From: Naegleria gruberi
Taxonomy: Eukaryota
Reading direction: 5' to 3' (one strand)
Length of the DNA stretch: 64,000 nucleotides
Assembly (NCBI GenBank): GCA_000004985.1
Contig: GG738889.1
Each line of letters begins with the position of its first letter. Position 1 is the first letter of the stretch. Below the pieces are notes generated by a model. The model had not been told where the DNA came from. It did not search any database and saw only the letters and a list, made by a program, of their open reading frames with translations. Positions 8,894 to 46,633 of the stretch are shown one piece after another. The position numbers and the translations under genes were made by a program.

Positions 8894-8966
8894 CTCCCCC
8901 TGGTGGGCTCGAACCACCGACCTGCAGATTAACAGTCTGACGCTCTACCGACTGAGCTAAGGGGGA
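8894..8966 (-). tRNA. tRNA-Asn (anticodon GTT), 73 nt
   Basis: Cloverleaf read from reverse complement: acceptor TCCCCCT/AGGGGGA, D-arm GCTC-AGTCGGTA-GAGC, anticodon loop CTGTTAA, T-arm GGTGG-TTCGAGC-CCACC. One T-C mismatch at the top of the anticodon stem. Confidence 0.85.
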
Positions 8967-9672: not shown

Positions 9673-9966
9673 ATCTACTCTATCCTAAAATAAAAAAAAA
9701 TATAAATATATAATTTATTCTTTTATTTGCTGATGAAGATGAATTATTTGATATAGTAAGCTTAGGAAGATTTGCATATTTCCTCTGACTTCAATAGAAC
9801 TTTGCAAGATCGTTATTGTTACCCTTGCCTTTTCCTACAAAATTCAAGCAAAAACTCAACGAAAGGTTTGCAGTCATAACAAAGCAATGTTGATTTCGAC
9901 TCGATTTTCTGGTTTATAATCATAATAGGTTTGTTATAATACCAATATTAAAATTCATCCACGTAA

Positions 9967-10055
9967 GGCGGCTTAGCACAGTGGTAGTGCATCAGTCTTG
10001 TAGGCAGAAATGCTGAGATAACTGAGGGTCGAGGGTTCAATTCCCTCAGTCGCCT
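9967..10055 (+). tRNA. Intron-containing tRNA, anticodon TGT (Thr); 17-nt intron after position 37; followed by a T-run
   Basis: Acceptor GGCGGCT/AGTCGCC, D-arm GCAC-AGTGGTA-GTGC, anticodon stem TCAGT/ACTGA with loop CTTGTA|A interrupted by GGCAGAAATGCTGAGAT, T-arm GAGGG-TTCAATT-CCCTC. A downstream TTTTT acts as a Pol III terminator. Confidence 0.7.
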
Positions 10056-10515
10056 TTTTATTATTATTATTGGTTTCAATAAATGCTGAATGCTGTAACT
10101 GATTAATTTCTGAGAATATTTATTATTCTGATGAAAACTTGATAAGAAAATATATTAAGGTTGCCATAGTATCTGAGATTAGGTCACTCGATTCTCCGAA
10201 AAAATTTTACTCATTCAAATTCCATCCTAGCAAGCCTGAAAACGAGGTGTGCAACGATGTGATAACGAAAAAACGATTTTAGAACCCTTAGAGAGGCTTA
10301 TAAAAGTCACATTGGAGAAGAGCGCTACCAGAAACTACTTTCTCAAACAACAAGAGACAATGGAATACATGGCCATGATTGAAAATTTTGCAAACATGCA
10401 TAAGAAAGCTTATTGAATGAAGATATTGTTTAAGGCAAACTCGTTCACTAATTCACTAACTTTCGAATTGATTCAATAAGACGTTTTTTTAATATATTTA
10501 TCTAAATAATTTATT

Positions 10516-11976
10516 TTAAATTTCCATTTCATCGGCCATAATATCTTGGTCAGTATAGGTTTCGTCATCCTTCTTGACTGTAAAGTTTGGAGCGACTCTA
10601 CATCTCTCCATTTTAGTTCCAGCCTCAATAACAGATCCAGAGCTAATCACACAATCCTTCAAATGAACCTTATCTTCAATAATTACGTTACCCATAATGA
10701 CTGAATTATCAATTAAAACTCCACTTCCAAGACTACAATTCTTTCCAATATTACTCTTCTTGATGGTTGGTTTGGATACCTTCTTAGTGACAGATAATCC
10801 TTCTCCAATAACACAATCAGGTCCTAACAAAACAAGATCAGCTGGTGGTGTGACATGTGTACTTTGAACCATTTCACTATAAAAATCAATATTATTCTTT
10901 CTTGCAAGCTAAAATTATTGTGAAATAATTACAATAAATTATTCAAAATAACTTACCTCTCTATTGACATGTAAATAAGAAGAAACATCGTTACATCTCT
11001 TACAAAAAACTCCTTGTCTTGTTGGGGTCTTTGCGGCTGTGGTGGTGGTAGTTGGTTTATCTTCGTGTGGAGGAACAACATGGGCAAAAACTCGAATCAC
11101 ATCACTGAGTTCAGATTCAGATGTACTCATTCTATAAGCTTCTGATAATGGGAATGGCGTAACAACAGTGGAGAGGACAGGATCTAACTTATCGGAAGAA
11201 ACTTTTTGTGAGTCAATCAAGAATGGAACCAAATCAGACTTGATAGAGTGAATATCAGGTTTTTGAACCAATAAATCAATGACCCACTTTGAAAAGATGT
11301 ATAAATGTGAATCTTTGAGGAATTTGGAAATTGAAAAGTTTGACCATCTCTTCAAGAATGAGCGTGGAATTGATAAATGTTCTTCGGAACCATCATCTGC
11401 ATCATCCGAGTCAATAATTCTATTCATAATTACACGTGATGGCTTCTTTGATAATAAATCTCTTCTCTTCTTTGTTGGTTCACCAACAATTTCTCTCTTA
11501 TAATTTGTCAATGCAAAATAATCGGATTTATCCTCTTTAGAATTAATATTTGATTCATCCTTCAAAAGGAGAGTAAGTGATGAATTATGTTGTCTATGAA
11601 TATCATAAACATTAACCAAAGGAACATCAGTAAATGTATCAACACTCATCACAACAAAATTTGTATAAATAGAATCATGAATTTGTCGTAAAGCTTCAGC
11701 ACTTTCGCAATCCTTGTTGTCCAAAGTTTTAATATCAATTTTTAATTTCCCTGGATATTCCTCGATGGCTTGTTCAATAATCTTTTGTTGTCCAGCTTTA
11801 ACAACAACAATAACATCCTTCAATCCATTCCTCTCCAAATAAGACAATGAATAGTGAATCATTGGATGATTAGCAATCGGCAGTGTTGCCTTTGGTGAGT
11901 GGTCTGAAGCGAGAGGATACAGTCTCAATCCATCTCCTCCAGCCAACAATACGGCTTGCAATTCGGTTTGCATCAT
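10516..11976 (-). CDS. Translation initiation factor eIF2B gamma subunit (~470 aa): complement(join(10516..10908,10957..11976))
   Basis: N-terminal nucleotidyltransferase-like domain (LQAVLLAGGDGLRLYPL...PKATLPIANHPMIHYSL) aligns with EIF2B3/GCD1. C-terminal left-handed beta-helix hexapeptide repeats end in ...DEMEI, as in EIF2B3. A 48-nt GTAAGT...TTTTAG intron joins the two track ORFs in frame. Confidence 0.8.
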
Positions 11977-40811: not shown

Positions 40812-40995
40812 TTGAATGTGTTTTCAATTATTAAGGCTGAAAAATAAGTAGAGAGGGCGGTGGCAATTTCTTAAACTTATTACAGCAGTACCACCCAGCG
40901 AATGGTTTTCACTCAATTTTTAAAACACAGTAAAGACAATCAAAATACAGCGAGACATTTATTGCCATTATTGCGCATTAGAGTCAGTAGAGTCT

Positions 40996-42389
40996 TTATT
41001 TATTGATCCATGGTTGATTTTCAGTGCCATAGACTCCATAGTTTGAAGATGATTCATAGTCGCCAGAAGCACCTGGTGATGGTGGACGTAATGGTGGTCC
41101 AGAAGGTACAACTGGTCCAGATCCTCCTTCACTTACACTTGGATAAGGATTATATCTATAGTTAGAAGAACCTGCAGAGGAAAAGTATCTTGGGTGATTT
41201 CGAGATGGTGAAATTCTGTTAGAAGTTGGTCTTGAAGAGGAACCTGGTGGAGGTGATGATGGTTCTCTTCCAGTTCCAGGAGGAGGAGTATATGGAGGAT
41301 AATCATAACTTCCATTAGGTCCATAAGGTGGATAATATCCATAGGCTCCAGGTGGATAGTAAGCTCCAGGTGGATAACCTGAATAAGGTGGATATCCTGT
41401 ATAGCCAGAGTAAGGTGGGCCAGAGAATGGTCTAGCATCCTTACCTCCACTTGTTGAGCTTGCAGTTGAGGCACCACTGGCTCCACGAGTGTGTTCTTCA
41501 CCACTCATTGATGGAGGAGTACCTGGTGGAGGTGGAAATTGGCCATAAGGTGGATATCCATAATATCCATAGTTATAATAGTCATATGGTGGTTGACCTG
41601 ATTGAGGAGGAAGATAAGAACCAGGTGGTAATCTACCTCCTTTTGGTGTATGACCACCTCCTCTTTGTCTGAATGGTGGCTTACCTCCACCTCTTCCACC
41701 ACCACCACTTCCACGACCATTGTCTCTTCCACTACCACCTCTAGAACCACGTGGATGGTCCTTATCACGCATTGATTTTGGCATTAAACGCTCCCTAGGT
41801 GTTCTTTTTCCTTGATAACCTTGTCCAGGTGTTGAGTTGTGTCCTTCTGTTCTGGCAGCTTTTTCAATATGAAGAGCTTGACCTTTCACAACAATTTTGG
41901 CTTCCTTAAGTCTTGTTGCATCCTCAACACTGGCCATGGTAACAAAACAGAAACCTCTATTAATAAGTTTCTTTCTGTCCATAACTATTTTTACAGATTC
42001 AACCTTACCGAATAATGAAAATTCCTTAGTAATATCCTCCTCTCTTGTATCTACAGTCAAGTTAAATACAAATAATACTCTAGAGTTATCGGTTAAACTA
42101 TTCTTGTATTCATTTTCTTCATCCTCATCCTCTTGAAGGTCATGATAATTATCTTGATGTTCACCGTGGTGTGCATGTTGAGGATTAGAATCTGTTTGGT
42201 TGTTGGTATTGTTGTTGTTTTTACGTTGTGGTGATTCGGGTGTCTGTTGATAATAACGGTTTTACATGTTGGAGGTTTTTCAAAATTGTTGATAATTGAA
42301 CATGAACCATACAGTTATAAATATAAATATGATGTTGTTTAAATGTGATTTAAATTAGAAATTTGATGATGTTGATGATTTCATACCAT
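40996..42389 (-). CDS. RRM-domain RNA-binding protein with RGG box and Tyr/Pro/Gly-rich C-terminus; proposed structure complement(join(40996..42243,42387..42389)) with an ATG-only first exon
   Basis: The track ORF starts inside the RRM (RNP1 RGFCFVTM). RNP2 (LFVFNL) and an acidic/His-rich N-terminal extension lie upstream in the same frame, but the only in-frame ATG is followed by a stop. An ATG|GTATGA...CAG intron (~143 nt) gives an in-frame start. The long C-terminal PPGYY/RGG low-complexity region is clear. Confidence 0.5.
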
Positions 42390-42803
42390 TTGATGTGTAT
42401 TTTACTATATGATGTAGTGTTGCTGACTTGATGGAGAATCTTGATGGAGTCTACCTGTTGTTATATATTCTTAATAAAAATTGTTGCCGAGTTGTTGCTG
42501 CTGCTTTGAAACGAAAGTATACACAGTCCTCAAAACTTGAATTGTTACTCCTCAGTACTTATTGTGGAAACAAAAAAGTTGTGTGCTGCTGCGACTACGT
42601 TATATTCCTGCTGTCGTAGTGTGGTTGTATTTTTTAAAATTAGATTTTGCAATTTTTAAAAAATTATTTTTATTAATTAAAAAAATCCGATTAATACTTC
42701 CTCATATACTGTTGCACAACTTTGATTCATCTCTTTTTTGGGAAAGAAGTTCTTGCTTATGAAATTATTTGTTGTTCTTTTATGTGGATAGAATAGTAGA
42801 TAG

Positions 42804-44838
42804 ATGGAGAAGAATGTGGATTCGGAGGCTTGTTTTCAACCTATCAGAGAACAAATATTAATTGCCTTGAATTTTGAAAAGGATTTATCTTGTAATATTT
42901 ATTAAATTGGATCGAGAGTATATGGAACTCATAGGGATGATTCTGATTATGATTTTTTCATGGTAATTTCCGATGATTTTTATCAAAGTTTGAACGAGAA
43001 TTATAGTCGTGAGGAAAATTTGAGATTTCATAATAAGTTTAAAGATTCGTGGGTTGTTTTTTCAGAGAATGAAAATAATAGACCTTCATTGGAAAGTAAA
43101 CTAAATAATGAGGCTTCTGAATGGTCAAAAGAGGGCAAATCTGGTATGGGAAGAGAATTTCAGTGTTTACTATTGGAAACCTCTTGTGGAACTGAGCTGA
43201 ATGTAAATCTTTACAATTACAGCTCATTCAAAAAAAGGCTAGAATCGAACTGGATTCAATCCATCATGTGCTACAGTGCAAGTGAAAAATTTGTTCCAAG
43301 TTTGGATTTTCCTGAACTGCACACTTGTTTCAAGTTATATTTCAGAAAGATAGCTCTGAGTGCCATTGCTGAAGCAAGTAGTCATTATAGGCTTGCTAAG
43401 AAATATTGGAGCTCATCTAACACATACAGACCAAAGAAGTATATTGTTCATACTTTTAGAGATTTATTATTTGCTATTCAAATAGTGAAATTCAGAAGAA
43501 TTGTTGACTTTTCTCAGTCCAACGATTTGTATTATGAAATAATGGGAAAAGAGGAAACTGATTGGAATTATTTTGATTCAATTTACTATGCGAGATATCA
43601 AAAAATGAAAGAGGAACTAAATGAACTAGTAATGCTACCACCAATTGTGAAAGAAATTGAAAAACTTCCAAACAGTATTCATGTTTATGTCACTAGAATG
43701 AATAATGACTTCCAATCCATCTCAGATGAATTGGAAAGCTATTTTTCACTGGATATTACACACAAAAATGAAAACAATGTGGAATATCTATATTTTAGAG
43801 GAACAGATGAAACTCCTCTATATTCAGATTTTACCCTGAAGTTGTTTAATGGTTGCATACTCGGTAAATTCAATAATGTCACGGAACTCATCTGCCTCCC
43901 TCATAAGAAAGCTATTCCTGTTGGAAATCGTTATCAACCAAAGGTACTAGATATTAAAAATGGTTGTACCATTTGGAATATTGAAGCCAGTGCAAATATA
44001 GAAAATCTCATGGTACACATATACTATGACATTTTTACTCACAATTGGAAAATGTTACACAATGAAAAACCTAGTTGTGAAATTATATGGAAGAAATTTA
44101 AGGAACTAGGCTATGAAACTCCAAATAATGTAGATTTTACGTATACATTTGAAGTAATATTGGAAAGGAAAACATTTATTATTCAACAAATTAACCTCTT
44201 TTCAATTCAAGATACGAAGAAAGAGGTAATGGTCGATTTTTCTGAAGAGCTCTACTCAACGAAGAGATTAAAACATAATGGACTTACCTCACTGACTCAC
44301 ATTACTAACTATGCTAAGCAAATTAACCCATTGGAAACCAAAGAAATATTAATTATTGAAAAATCATGCATTCTTTCAGTAAGTGTCATTCAATTATATC
44401 GCAAATATTTATGCTATATTAAAGTATATCCTACCTCAATTCAATATTTTGAGCAATAGCTCTGAAAATGCTGCAGAGAGAGTTACCATTGAGCTTTTAC
44501 GTACTTCTCTCAATAATCCTCAACTCATTGAAATGGCAAGAGATTATGTCACCCTTAGATTCAACTCCTCTACGATATTCGATTCCGTACACAAAAAGAT
44601 TTCACTCCTTGTTGATAAGATATGTGACCTTCTCCCTCTAAATTTCAAAACGGAAGGAACAGAAAAAACAATTGGTCAAAGTTTCATCACCGAGTTAAAT
44701 TTTGTAAAGATTTTCCTTGTTTCTCTTCAACAAAAGCTCAAAAAACAATCCACAACCAACAATTTTGATTTTGTTTGCAATTGTTTCAAAGAGGTTGATA
44801 GTGATACGTTTTTTAAAGTGGCCAACACCTTCGAATAA
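42804..44838 (+). CDS. Polymerase-beta-superfamily nucleotidyltransferase (OAS/cGAS/Mab21-like or Cid1-like; family unresolved), ~660 aa: join(42804..44378,44425..44838) with an in-frame TAA at 42903-42905
   Basis: N-terminal helix plus NTase core ...IREQILIALNFEKDLSCNIY*IGSRVYGTHRDDSDYDFFMV fits h-G-S-x9-13-D-h-D, but codon 34 (where a hydrophobic residue is expected) is TAA. A 46-nt GTAAGT...AAAG intron joins the 499-aa track ORF to the downstream 151-aa ORF in frame. Confidence 0.5.
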
Positions 44839-45003
44839 AAACAACCACTAACCATTCTAACGAATGGGCACGATAAGCGCGAGATGGAAGGAATAATAAG
44901 TGAAGTCGGACGAATAAGCAGTAACATTCACTCTGTACTGGAGATCTCTTAAAATCATAACAAAGAGGTACAACAAACTCACAAATCATCACACAAAACA
45001 AAA

Positions 45004-46633
45004 ATGCAACACTCAACTGTGTTTCTTCTTGTCATCTCGTTGATTGGTTAGTAGCAGTTACATTATTATTGAACTAAACACCACATGCCAAACAGCATTT
45101 GTTATCAACAACGCATGCGCAGCACCTTATCCATGCGCTACCGTCTATCGTCCATTTTCTGCTGATTCTCTGTGGAATAGTCGTCCGGTCAATCCTGTCC
45201 TTGCTGAAAATGTCACCATACCAGAATCTGAAGTAAAATATTACCCAGCAATTGGTGAAGGAAGTTTCTCAACAGGTGTCTATATTGCATCAGCCTCTGA
45301 TCCATCAGTGACAGTTTATGGTCCTTCTGATTCGGTTGGAATTAATCTTTCTGAAGCTTTCGCCAAAGTACCAAGTCTTGTAATTCCAAGATGGCCAGGA
45401 AATACTATTCCTGCATCAGGTGGTGATGGCCATTGTGAAATTTATGATCCAATTGATAATAGAATTCACTCTTTCTGGCAATTGAAGAAGGTGAATGGTA
45501 CATGGCGTGCAACTCTTTATGGATGGTCTGCATTGGATGGACCTGGTTGGTCAACTCCTGCTACTTTTTATTCTGGAGCTAGAGCAGTTGGTATTGCCTC
45601 CTCTGCAGGATTGATTCGTACTCATGAAGTAAATGATGGTGATACCATGTATAGACATGCTTTAACCATGTCCATGACCAATAATGGTTTGGACAACAAT
45701 CCTACTTATGTCTTTCCAGCCACAGCTGCCGATAGTGATGCTGCAACCACTAACTATGGTAATATTCCAGAAGGCAGTCGTCTATTTTTGCCATCTTCAT
45801 TCAATGTATCTAAATTGATATCTACTCCAAAATTGAAAAAGATTGCTGAAACTTTGAAAACTTATGGAGCTTATGTCACTGATAGAAATTATGGAACACC
45901 ATATTTTATCTATGTTGAAATGGGATCCAATTATACACTCCATCCAGGTGGTTGGAATAATGTAGCAGCCAGTGAATTGCAAGTTATTCGTGCAGCTCTT
46001 CGTCCAATGGTTTCATGCTCTGGTTGGCTTAATGGAAATGATCAACAAGTCACATTTACACAAAATCAAAATGTTTTATCAATGAGAGGTCCATGGGGTT
46101 TAGAAAGTGGACCATCAGGAGGAAGTTATGATACATGGAAACAAGCTGTAGTGTTTGCTAATAGAACTTCTAGGACAACCTTCAGAACTTACAGTGCAAA
46201 CGGATTTGCTAAGGTTTCCTGGGGATCCCCAACAAGTGGAGTATTATATAATGTTACTGCCAAGACAACAGGTGGTGGTCAATTCAGATTGCTCTTGAAT
46301 ATGCAATGTCAAAACAAGTCAAATATTGATACAGGTGCGCTCTCTAATGGACAAAGTTATTTATTTACATGGCCATCTTCATATTGCTCTAGTTCTATTT
46401 TTGCCTATAGTGGAGTCAACCAAGAATCAAGTGTGTCTGTGACCATGTTGAGATATGAAGCTCCACAACCACAAGATACCTCATCTAAAGGTGGATCTAC
46501 TAATCCATCTAGCTCGTCTACAATTGTACCAACCCCATCAAAATCCTCAAGAAACGTCAATAGTTCTGTAAGAGTGGAATATAGTTTGGTTCTTGGCATT
46601 TTCTTTGTAATTCTATCACTTCTTCAATTCTAG
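45004..46633 (+). CDS. Secreted Ser/Thr-rich GPI-anchored (cell-wall-type) protein, ~526 aa: join(45004..45046,45096..46633)
   Basis: Signal-peptide exon MQHSTVFLLVISLI joined by a 49-nt intron (GTTAGT..CTAAAC..CAG). C-terminal Ser/Thr-rich stalk, omega-site-like region and hydrophobic tail (SLVLGIFFVILSLLQF). Confidence 0.6.

What the first reader, a model, noticed from the sequence alone, without database searches (positions are those of the whole stretch)
42804..44838. OAS/cGAS-like nucleotidyltransferase gene interrupted by an in-frame TAA inside its catalytic core motif
The N-terminus reads ...IREQILIALNFEKDLSCNIY-TAA-IGSRVYGTHRDDSDYDFFMV. It is a textbook Pol-beta NTase beta-strand and active site (hhhh-GS-x10-DxD), except that the conserved hydrophobic position before GS is a TAA stop (42903-42905). 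TAA is a genuine stop elsewhere in this window (ribosomal P1, eIF2B gamma, LYS4 and XAP5 all end on TAA with conserved C-termini). So this is either a pseudogene, a base-call error, or a rare read-through site. The NTase itself has GS...GT...SDYD spacing like 2'-5' oligoadenylate synthetases (OAS), and it sits in a genome that also encodes ZNFX1 and a TRAF6-like E3. That makes it a candidate cGLR/OAS-type immune sensor worth placing phylogenetically.
Basis: partly seen in the sequence, partly recalled or inferred. Interest (0 to 1): 0.55.

Follow-up and report, generated by a model that had tools for sequence, protein, structure and literature searches.

The report
Nonsense-interrupted RNA-repair-type nucleotidyltransferase gene
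This Naegleria gruberi gene joins an RNA-tailing-type enzyme domain to a degenerate RNA-ligase-like domain and carries one premature stop codon that another isolate lacks, so it is a recently broken allele or a base-call error, not an OAS/cGAS-type immune sensor.

Summary
ATG 42804 opens a 662-codon frame (46-nt intron at 44379-44424) whose only internal stop is TAA at codon 34 (42903-42905), two residues before the Gly-Ser of a Pol-beta nucleotidyltransferase (NTase) motif.

The window is the N. gruberi NEG-M reference. An independent 99%-identical contig has CAA (Gln) there, the syntenic N. lovaniensis orthologue has CAG, and nearly all homologues have Gln or Leu. The two N. gruberi haplotypes differ by 9 synonymous, 4 missense and 1 nonsense change (pN/pS 0.13). 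So this is a very recent CAA>TAA nonsense allele or a base-call error, not recoding.

The OAS/cGAS reading is not supported:
- No Mab21, OAS or SMODS profile matches.
- Fold searches return KNTase/ANT, HalB and Tam41 for the N-terminal half.

The NTase is a remote homologue of RlaP, the RNA-ligase-associated NTases such as T4 NrdC.11 (hhalign probability 95%). The ligase-like domain has lost the motif I lysine and motifs IV and V.

Relatives occur in Heterolobosea, phages (NTase gene near an Rnl1 gene) and, by fold search, giant viruses. The likely role is RNA 3'-end repair or tailing.

The parts
42804..44378 (+). Exon 1 (codons 1-525) of the NTase / ligase-like fusion gene. The ATG at 42804 follows an in-frame TAG at 42801-42803.
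   Evidence: The gene call on the independent contig L001 starts at the same ATG.
42903..42905 (+). Premature in-frame TAA (codon 34). It lies in beta-strand 1, two residues before Gly36-Ser37.
   Evidence: The other N. gruberi haplotype has CAA. N. lovaniensis has CAG. Nearly the whole family has Gln or Leu. The model puts a strand at residues 30-35.
42909..42953 (+). NTase catalytic motif: G36-S37 ... S47-D48-Y49-D50 (GSRVYGTHRDDSDYD).
   Evidence: Pfam NTP_transf_2 covers residues 31-81. G36, S37, D48 and D50 are invariant across 21 fused and stand-alone relatives.
42960..42962 (+). First downstream in-frame ATG (codon 53). Any product started here lacks G36-S37 and D48/D50.
   Evidence: ORF 42960..44459. 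Sequence read directly.
42843..43658 (+). NTase core plus helical domain (about residues 14-285), with a low-confidence insert at residues 86-116. Conserved K212, H216, R219 and Q226 sit in the helical part.
43194..43214 (+). Strand ELNVNLY (residues 131-137). Asn133 occupies the position of the third catalytic Asp of RlaP.
   Evidence: hhalign aligns ELNVNLY with NIDHELY of T4 NrdC.11. The position is D, N, E or S across the family.
43710..44378 (+). Rnl1/Trl1-type RNA-ligase (adenylyltransferase) fold, exon 1 part (about residues 303-525).
43968..44030 (+). Region equivalent to ligase motif I (residues 389-409, TIWNIEASANIENLMVHIYYD). It has no lysine and no KxDG.
   Evidence: MAFFT and hhalign place the catalytic Lys opposite Asn398 and Ile393 respectively, and no Lys lies in residues 389-402. 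All 10 heterolobosean members lack it. Mapping to T4 Rnl1 TKEDGS comes through P0069.
44337..44378 (+). Equivalents of ligase motif IV (TKEILIIE in place of xEGhVVxD) and the first half of motif V (SCILS).
44379..44424 (+). 46-nt GT-AG intron. It interrupts the motif V-equivalent region.
   Evidence: A 1-nt indel between the haplotypes at 44402 is the only indel inside the gene.
44425..44838 (+). Exon 2 (codons 526-662 plus TAA). It holds the rest of the motif V equivalent (YILPQF, both lysines absent) and a C-terminal domain that aligns with the C-terminal domain of stand-alone Rnl1-like ligases.
   Evidence: The hhalign alignment runs to profile position 628 of 685.

Best explanation
The locus is the N. 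gruberi NEG-M gene currently modelled as NAEGRDRAFT_71236 (EFC40875.1). It encodes a 662-residue fusion protein with three modules:
1. An N-terminal Pol-beta-type NTase with its helical partner domain. It is a divergent relative of the RNA-ligase-associated NTases (RlaP; T4 NrdC.11).
2. A T4 Rnl1/Trl1-type RNA-ligase fold.
3. The Rnl1-like C-terminal domain.

In Heterolobosea the ligase module has lost the motif I lysine nucleophile, the motif IV Glu-Gly and both motif V lysines. It therefore cannot run the canonical lysyl-AMP ligation pathway.

Inferred mechanism: the dead ligase module and its C-terminal domain act as a binding module for broken RNA ends or tRNA loops. They present a 3'-OH end to the NTase, which adds one or a few nucleotides, as shown for bacterial RlaP. 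This would be an RNA-repair or RNA-tailing function inherited from, or shared with, phage and giant-virus RNA-repair modules.

In this reference sequence codon 34 has changed from CAA (Gln) to TAA by a single C>T transition. Translation would stop after 33 residues. Re-initiation at Met53 would give a protein without Gly-Ser and Asp48/Asp50. This copy is therefore a very young null allele (incipient pseudogene, possibly heterozygous), or less likely a consensus base error. It is not a recoding site.

What is shown: the sequence facts, the homology, the fold, the motif loss, and the CAA/CAG state in the other haplotype and the orthologue. What is inferred: the RNA substrate, the role of the dead ligase module, and whether the TAA is real.
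For: Identity of the locus:
- P0002, at 100% identity, is EFC40875.1 / XP_002673619.1 of N. gruberi.

The stop codon:
- Contig L001 (ENA ERZ929261) matches window 40897-44868 at 99.05% identity and reads CAA at 42903.
- Of 14 CDS differences between the two haplotypes, 9 are synonymous, 4 are missense (all in codons 607-646) and 1 is the nonsense change. pN/pS is 0.13 and the binomial P is 3e-4, so the gene was under purifying selection until very recently.
- The syntenic N. lovaniensis orthologue reads PLCNIYQFGSRVYGT with CAG at this codon.
- Homologues have Gln or Leu at this position.
- The 101 nt from 42900 to 43000, spanning the stop and the sequence downstream of it, show no significant RNA structure (z +0.63).

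Architecture:
- Pfam NTP_transf_2 matches the query and 9 of 10 family members.
- The AF2 model has pLDDT 80.6 and pTM 0.79.
- A profile search found 1831 relatives. They include stand-alone PF09511 ligases, NTases of about 200 aa, and NTase+ligase fusions.
- hhalign, family against a PF09511 ligase: probability 98.9%. That ligase aligns to T4 Rnl1 K99, E227-G228 and K240/K242.
- The motif table shows loss of motifs I, IV and V in all heterolobosean members.

Link to RlaP and RNA repair:
- hhalign of the NTase profile against T4 NrdC.11: probability 95.2%, E 2.6e-8.
- NrdC.11 and the family's NTases hit the same PHROG, phrog_388.
- In Bacillus phages pW2 and PJN02 the stand-alone NTase homologue lies 1.3-1.6 kb upstream of a T4 Rnl1-like ligase gene.
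- The best viral fold matches are Klosneuvirinae proteins (Terrestrivirus, Yasminevirus) aligned over about 585 columns.
- RlaP adds 1-2 NMP to RNA 3'-OH ends, and T4 NrdC.11 is an RlaP (PMC12776372).
Against: - Reads and transcripts could not be examined, so a genuine nonsense allele cannot be separated from a consensus error, and heterozygosity in NEG-M is unknown.
- Pfam RlaP (PF10127) is hit only below threshold: best E 0.0064 in 3 of 10 members, and 21.7 bits against a cut-off of 23 for a stand-alone relative.
- The third catalytic Asp, described as strictly conserved in RlaP (PMC12776372), is Asn133 here and varies (D/N/E/S) across the family. NTase activity is therefore not assured.
- No experiment exists on any member of this fused family, so the RNA substrate and the sensor role of the dead ligase are inference.
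- The origin of the ENA contig (a sample labelled metagenome) is undocumented; a search for PRJEB11402 found no paper.
Confidence: 0.62

Rival explanations
1. The TAA is a base-call or assembly error in the NEG-M reference. The real gene reads CAA and is intact.
For: It is a single C/T difference from a haplotype that is otherwise 99% identical. There is no other disabling lesion and pN/pS is 0.13. The rest of the family has Gln at this position.
Against: C>T at CAA is also the commonest natural route to a nonsense codon. The other 17 substitutions and 7 indels between the two contigs look like true allelic variation, with in-frame 9-bp and 3-bp indels in the neighbouring RRM gene. Naegleria are described as mainly heterozygous diploids (PMC9928731). 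My own rough estimate is that real nonsense alleles should outnumber error-made stops in a finished Sanger assembly.
Confidence: 0.22
2. The UAA is read through, either programmed or leaky. Near-cognate Gln-tRNA would restore exactly the ancestral residue, so the gene would remain functional in NEG-M.
For: The ancestral residue is Gln. From general knowledge, near-cognate decoding of UAA commonly inserts Gln, so any basal read-through would yield wild-type protein. The frame downstream is intact.
Against: The stop is not conserved: CAA in the other haplotype and CAG in N. lovaniensis. The context is UAA-A and the sequence from 42900 to 43000 has no significant structure (z +0.63). TAA ends 19 of 26 long frames in the window. 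The three tRNA genes in the window decode Asn, Thr and Val, so none is a suppressor.
Confidence: 0.04
3. It is an OAS/cGAS (cGLR)-type nucleotide-second-messenger immune sensor.
For: It has the GS...DxD Pol-beta motif shared by the whole superfamily. One of the structural neighbours of the NTase half, HalB, is a signalling NTase of a bacterial defence system.
Confidence: 0.03
4. The TAA lies in an unrecognised mini-intron (GT at 42892 to AG at 42918, 27 nt, in frame) and is spliced out.
For: The GT...AG boundaries exist and the length is a multiple of three (read).
Against: Removal would delete CNIY*IGSR, including the invariant Gly36-Ser37. The segment is collinear coding sequence in every homologue and in the CAA haplotype. 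At 27 nt it is far shorter than this gene's own 46-nt intron.
Confidence: 0.01

Closest known systems
[quoted passage not shown]
   Same: Both have an N-terminal GS...DxD NTase followed by a helical domain. The NTase profile aligns with T4 NrdC.11 at hhalign probability 95.2% over 137 columns, and both hit phrog_388. Both are associated with RNA ligases, here by fusion and in phage relatives by gene proximity. RlaP adds 1-2 NMP to RNA 3'-OH ends (PMC12776372).
   Different: The Pfam PF10127 gathering score is not reached. The third 'strictly conserved' Asp of RlaP is Asn133 here. The protein is fused to, rather than merely encoded next to, a ligase module. It is eukaryotic.
T4 RNA ligase 1 (Rnl1, gp63; PF09511) and the fungal Trl1 ligase domain
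   Different: Motif I KxDG, motif IV EG and motif V KxK are all replaced in the Naegleria protein and in every heterolobosean homologue. It is a ligase fold without the ligase active site. It is not among the seven N. gruberi Rnl1 accessions listed in PMC4408790 (compare).
Exonuclease-NTase-ligase and NTase-ligase fusion proteins (metagenomic P0031 and P0036; giant-virus Terrestrivirus A0A3G4ZN96 and Yasminevirus A0A5K0U7I7)
   Same: P0031 and P0036 have the same NTase + Rnl1-like architecture by Pfam. The giant-virus proteins align over about 585 columns at Foldseek E 3e-19, which I read as coverage of both halves; their domains were not checked by profile.
   Different: P0031 and P0036 keep an intact ligase active site (EKIDGSL, EGFVV, KxK). 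P0036 has an extra RNase_T exonuclease domain, and the Terrestrivirus protein is named 'putative exonuclease' in UniProt. The motif status of the giant-virus proteins was not examined.
KNTase/ANT aminoglycoside nucleotidyltransferases, Hailong HalB, Tam41
   Different: Sequence identity is only 9-13%. Their substrates differ (aminoglycosides, dATP oligomerisation, lipids). None has a ligase-fold partner. There are no PADLOC hits.
OAS / cGAS / Mab21 (cGLR) sensors
   Same: Only the superfamily-wide GS...DxD Pol-beta core.
   Different: There are no family-specific profile hits and no structural match among the top hits. The helical domain is of a different type and the fusion partner is different.

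Membership tests
Pol-beta nucleotidyltransferase superfamily (Pfam NTP_transf_2 / Polbeta) | hG[GS] - x9-13 - [DE]h[DE]h motif on a beta-alpha-beta core; profile score above the gathering threshold | tested here: met
   NTP_transf_2 scores 26.3 bits against a cut-off of 21 and matches 9 of 10 family members. G36, S37, D48 and D50 are invariant. The model has strands at 30-35 and 49-55.
Pol-beta nucleotidyltransferase superfamily | A third catalytic carboxylate on a neighbouring strand | tested here: not met
   The residue aligned to RlaP's third Asp is Asn133. It is N in 9 of 10 heterolobosean members and D, N, E or S in the wider family.
RlaP (PF10127) | Pfam PF10127 score above the gathering threshold (23 bits) | tested here: not met
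   There is no hit for the query. Hits are sub-threshold in 3 of 10 members (best E 0.0064) and reach 21.7 bits in the stand-alone relative P0092.
RlaP (PF10127) | Detectable homology to a bona fide RlaP (T4 NrdC.11) | tested here: met
   hhalign probability 95.2%, E 2.6e-8, 137 columns. Both hit phrog_388: NrdC.11 at 2e-135, P0009 at 2.4e-7, P0092 at 1.5e-14.
RlaP (PF10127) | Genomic or physical association with an RNA ligase | tested here: met
   The NTase is fused to an Rnl1-type fold in the same polypeptide. Stand-alone relatives lie 1.3-1.6 kb from Rnl1-like ligase genes in two Bacillus phages.
RlaP (PF10127) | Addition of 1-2 NMP to RNA 3'-OH ends | not testable with these tools
Rnl1 family ATP-dependent RNA ligases (PF09511) | Adenylyltransferase fold plus the Rnl1-type C-terminal domain | tested here: met
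Rnl1 family ATP-dependent RNA ligases (PF09511) | Motif I Lys nucleophile (KxDG), motif IV EG and motif V KxK | tested here: not met
   No Lys lies in residues 389-402. Motif IV reads KE and motif V reads S.P or YILPQ. The same holds in all 10 heterolobosean sequences. These motifs are present in the stand-alone ligases and in P0031/P0036.
Rnl1 family ATP-dependent RNA ligases (PF09511) | Pfam PF09511 score above the gathering threshold | tested here: not met
   No PF09511 hit at E<=1 for the query or for any of the 10 members.
OAS / cGAS / Mab21 (cGLR) | Mab-21, OAS1_C or SMODS profile match; bilobed Mab21 fold | tested here: not met
Programmed stop-codon read-through or recoding site | The stop codon is conserved in orthologues or alleles, with a stimulatory context or structure | tested here: not met
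   The other haplotype has CAA and N. lovaniensis has CAG. The fold of 42900-43000 has z +0.63.

The most novel reading that the evidence does not exclude
Heterolobosean amoebae, and perhaps amoeba-infecting giant viruses, may share an uncharacterised class of RNA-end enzyme. In it, an RlaP-like NTase with Asn in place of the third Asp is permanently coupled to a catalytically dead Rnl1-type ligase. The dead ligase would serve only to recognise broken RNA ends such as cleaved tRNA anticodon loops. On this reading the NEG-M TAA is a natural knockout allele segregating in N. gruberi, as expected for a dispensable conflict gene. A still more exotic reading is that the UAA is decoded as Gln. The evidence does not strictly exclude it, but I put it at about 0.04.
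Probability: 0.25. Interest if true: 0.5.

Novelty: new variant of a known kind. Interest (0 to 1): 0.3.

Why it matters
As a stop-codon finding it matters little. One C>T change explains it, and the practical result is a corrected annotation. The public model EFC40875.1 begins at Met155, omits the NTase domain, and is wrongly spliced onto the next gene.

The gene family is more useful. It links the recently characterised RlaP RNA-repair NTases to eukaryotes. It also offers a clear example of an RNA-ligase fold kept without its active site, fused to its NTase partner. N. gruberi is already noted for an unusually large set of RNA ligases (PMC4408790). This protein adds a ligase-derived pseudoenzyme to that set, and the intact CAA allele is a direct reagent for testing what such a module does.

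Tried and rejected
- Sequence search of the PDB with the family profile found nothing at E<=10. Fold search was needed.
- Exact-protein look-up of the 499-aa ORF downstream of the stop found no other assembly carrying the TAA haplotype.
- A metagenome DNA-pattern scan across the stop, allowing C or T, found no further copies.
- A literature search for PRJEB11402 found no paper, so the origin of the CAA contig is undocumented.
- Burroughs & Aravind 2016 (NAR 44:8525), which defined RlaP, is not held. I could not check whether these fusions are already described there.
- A scan of bacterial and archaeal genomes with the intact-ligase fusion P0031 found no relative. The IMG/VR scan gave one viral contig with an NTase relative (L005), which I did not follow.
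- The AFDB50 fold library was unavailable.
P0001, the CAA-allele product of 533 aa without exon 2, was modelled instead, so the C-terminal 137 residues have no 3D model.
- Rejected: a ciliate-type TAA=Gln code, a 27-nt mini-intron spanning the stop (see the rival explanations), and membership of a known defence system.
Full report
**1. The observation**

ATG at 42804 is preceded by an in-frame TAG. The frame then gives MEKNVDSEACFQPIREQILIALNFEKDLSCNIY-TAA-IGSRVYGTHRDDSDYDFFMV, with the TAA at 42903-42905.

A 46-nt GT-AG intron at 44379-44424 joins ...SCILS to YILPQF..., and the frame ends on TAA at 44836-44838.

The spliced frame has 663 codons with stops only at codon 34 and at the end. The two other frames of the same DNA have 34 and 76 stops. 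Shuffles average 53, with a minimum of 30 in 2000. This is a genuine coding frame with one nonsense codon.

TAA is not a sense codon in this genome. 19 of the 26 open frames of at least 250 codons in the window end on TAA, and frames of up to 1311 codons contain none.

One detail needs correcting. The stop is not at the hydrophobic residue directly before Gly-Ser (that is Ile35). It is one position earlier.

**2. Where the window comes from and what the stop is**

The window is the N. gruberi NEG-M reference. The public protein EFC40875.1 / XP_002673619.1 (NAEGRDRAFT_71236) matches at 100% over the part it covers.

A second, independent contig (ENA ERZ929261, 3974 nt; L001) matches window 40897-44868 at 99.05%, with 18 mismatches and 7 gap openings. 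At 42903 it has C, so the codon is CAA (Gln) and the gene is uninterrupted.

Of the 14 substitutions inside the CDS:
- 9 are synonymous.
- 4 are missense, all in the poorly conserved codons 607-646.
- 1 is the nonsense change.

This gives pN/pS = 0.13. The binomial probability of so few replacements is 3e-4. The only indel within the gene's span falls in the intron.

The syntenic N. lovaniensis orthologue has the same RRM-protein gene upstream on the opposite strand. It reads PLCNIYQFGSRVYGTARSDSDYDFF, with CAG at this codon. Across 45 NTase-bearing relatives the position is almost always Gln or Leu.

So the codon was Gln and the gene was under purifying selection until very recently. A single C>T transition made the stop.

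Nothing suggests recoding:
- The stop is not conserved.
- The context is UAA-A.
- The 101 nt from 42900 to 43000, which span the stop, fold no better than shuffles (z +0.63).
- The three tRNA genes in the window decode Asn, Thr and Val.

Termination at codon 34 leaves a 33-residue peptide. Re-initiation at Met53 (42960) would omit Gly36-Ser37 and Asp48/Asp50.

I cannot see reads, so a real nonsense allele and a consensus error remain apart only by prior odds. I put them at roughly 0.7 to 0.2. Naegleria are described as mainly heterozygous diploids (PMC9928731), so NEG-M may also carry an intact copy.

**3. What the gene encodes**

Pfam recognises only the generic NTP_transf_2 / Polbeta domain at residues 31-81. 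Close homologues are confined to Heterolobosea (N. lovaniensis, N. fowleri, Willaertia magna, Acrasis kona) plus a few metagenomic sequences.

An AlphaFold2 model of the CAA-allele product (P0001, 533 aa, 10-sequence alignment) has pLDDT 80.6 and pTM 0.79. It shows two halves.

No OAS, cGAS or Mab21 structure appears among the top 60 or top 50 hits. No Mab-21, OAS1_C or SMODS profile is hit at E<=1. PADLOC gives nothing for the amoebal proteins.

**4. The wider family**

A profile of the 10 homologues, searched against 1.84 billion representatives, found 1831 proteins at E<=1e-3. They fall into three classes:
- NTases of about 200 aa.
- Proteins of about 365 aa that Pfam calls RNA_lig_T4_1 (PF09511).
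- Fusions of 560-850 aa with both domains, some with an added RNase_T exonuclease.

One stand-alone ligase, P0069, aligns to T4 Rnl1 through K99 (motif I), E227-G228 (motif IV) and K240/K242 (motif V). The heterolobosean profile aligns to that ligase with hhalign probability 98.9% over 307 columns, reaching into the C-terminal domain.

In both the 55-sequence MAFFT alignment and the hhalign alignment:
- The stand-alone ligases and a few fusions (P0031, P0036) keep KxDG, FE, EG and KxK.
- Every heterolobosean sequence has lost the motif I lysine (here ...TIWNIEASANIENLMVHIYYD), motif IV (KE in place of EG) and both motif V lysines (SCILS|YILPQF).

The ligase module is therefore a ligase fold without the canonical active site.

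**5. Relation to RlaP**

RlaP (PF10127) was named for NTase genes that sit beside RNA-ligase genes. Two Pseudomonas enzymes were recently shown to add one or two NMPs to RNA 3'-OH ends, and T4 NrdC.11 is an RlaP (PMC12776372; see also PMC7824862).

Here PF10127 is hit only below threshold. However:
- A profile of fused and stand-alone NTases aligns to T4 NrdC.11 with hhalign probability 95.2% (E 2.6e-8, 137 columns).
- NrdC.11 and these NTases hit the same PHROG, phrog_388.
- In Bacillus phages pW2 and PJN02 the stand-alone NTase relative lies 1.3-1.6 kb upstream of a T4 Rnl1-like ligase gene.
- The best viral fold matches are Klosneuvirinae giant-virus proteins aligned over about 585 columns.

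One difference matters. RlaP's third Asp, described as strictly conserved, aligns with Asn133 of the Naegleria protein. The position varies (D/N/E/S) across this family. Invariant residues are G36, S37, D48, D50, K212, R219 and Q226.

**6. Mechanism (inferred)**

The intact protein most likely acts on RNA ends. The dead Rnl1-type module and its C-terminal domain would bind a broken RNA or tRNA loop. The RlaP-like NTase would extend the 3'-OH by one or a few nucleotides.

Two points remain open. The first is whether the Asn133 enzyme is fully active. The second is whether a separate ligase completes repair; N. gruberi has many (PMC4408790).

The reference allele cannot make this protein unless the TAA is an error or is occasionally misread as Gln.

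**7. Verdict**

- The pseudogene-or-error reading is supported.
- Read-through is unlikely.
- The OAS/cGAS immune-sensor reading is not supported.

The stop itself is ordinary. The protein is a new variant of a known kind, an RNA-ligase-associated NTase fused to a degenerate ligase. Its public gene model is wrong.

Noticed in passing
window 43266-46633 (public model EFC40875.1 / XP_002673619.1): The public N. gruberi gene model (949 aa) starts at Met155 (MCYSASEKF), so it lacks the whole NTase motif. After ...LLVDKI it is spliced onto the unrelated downstream ORF 45044-46633, making a chimera. The real C-terminus (...FFKVANTFE*) aligns with the C-terminal regions of the homologues. The premature TAA probably derailed the gene caller.
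   Followed up: partly
L002 2840-3003 (N. lovaniensis PYSW02000052.1): The N. lovaniensis orthologue model (XP_044542795.1) starts at the Met equivalent to window codon 53, which cuts off the NTase motif. The genomic DNA upstream does encode ...LNFESNYGKDQVKPLCNIYQFGSRVYGTARSDSDYDFF in frame. There is no in-frame ATG between the upstream stop and the motif, so the true start (an upstream exon or a non-ATG start) is unresolved.
   Followed up: partly
window 40979-40987 and after 41695 (RRM-protein gene, minus strand, 40996-42261): The two N. gruberi haplotypes differ by a 9-bp indel just downstream of the stop codon of the neighbouring RRM_1 gene and a 3-bp in-frame indel in its Pro/Gly/Tyr-rich tail. 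This looks like true allelic variation in and next to a low-complexity region.
   Followed up: no
window 45044-46633 (+): A 529-aa ORF directly downstream has no Pfam hit at E<=1e-3. It has a Ser-rich C-terminal stretch followed by a hydrophobic tail (possible membrane or GPI anchor). Its function is unknown.
   Followed up: partly
window 8894-8966 (-), 9966-10056 (+), 11208-11285 (-): A cluster of three tRNA genes (Asn-GTT, Thr-TGT, Val-CAC). The Thr gene is 91 nt long and so probably contains an intron.
   Followed up: no
BFVD A0A3G4ZN96 (Terrestrivirus, 794 aa) and A0A5K0U7I7 (Yasminevirus, 1081 aa); metagenomic P0036 (847 aa): Two Klosneuvirinae giant-virus proteins, named 'putative exonuclease' and 'Endonuclease V' in UniProt, match the model over about 585 columns. 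A GC-rich metagenomic protein, P0036, has the domain order RNase_T - Pol-beta NTase - intact Rnl1-like ligase. This hints at a three-enzyme RNA end-processing polyprotein shared between amoebal viruses and amoebae.
   Followed up: partly
L003 5166-5963 and L004 4653-5501 (Bacillus phages pW2, PJN02): In both phages a gene annotated 'protease' sits between the RlaP-like NTase gene and the Rnl1-like RNA ligase gene, so the three-gene arrangement is conserved. The protease was not examined.
   Followed up: no
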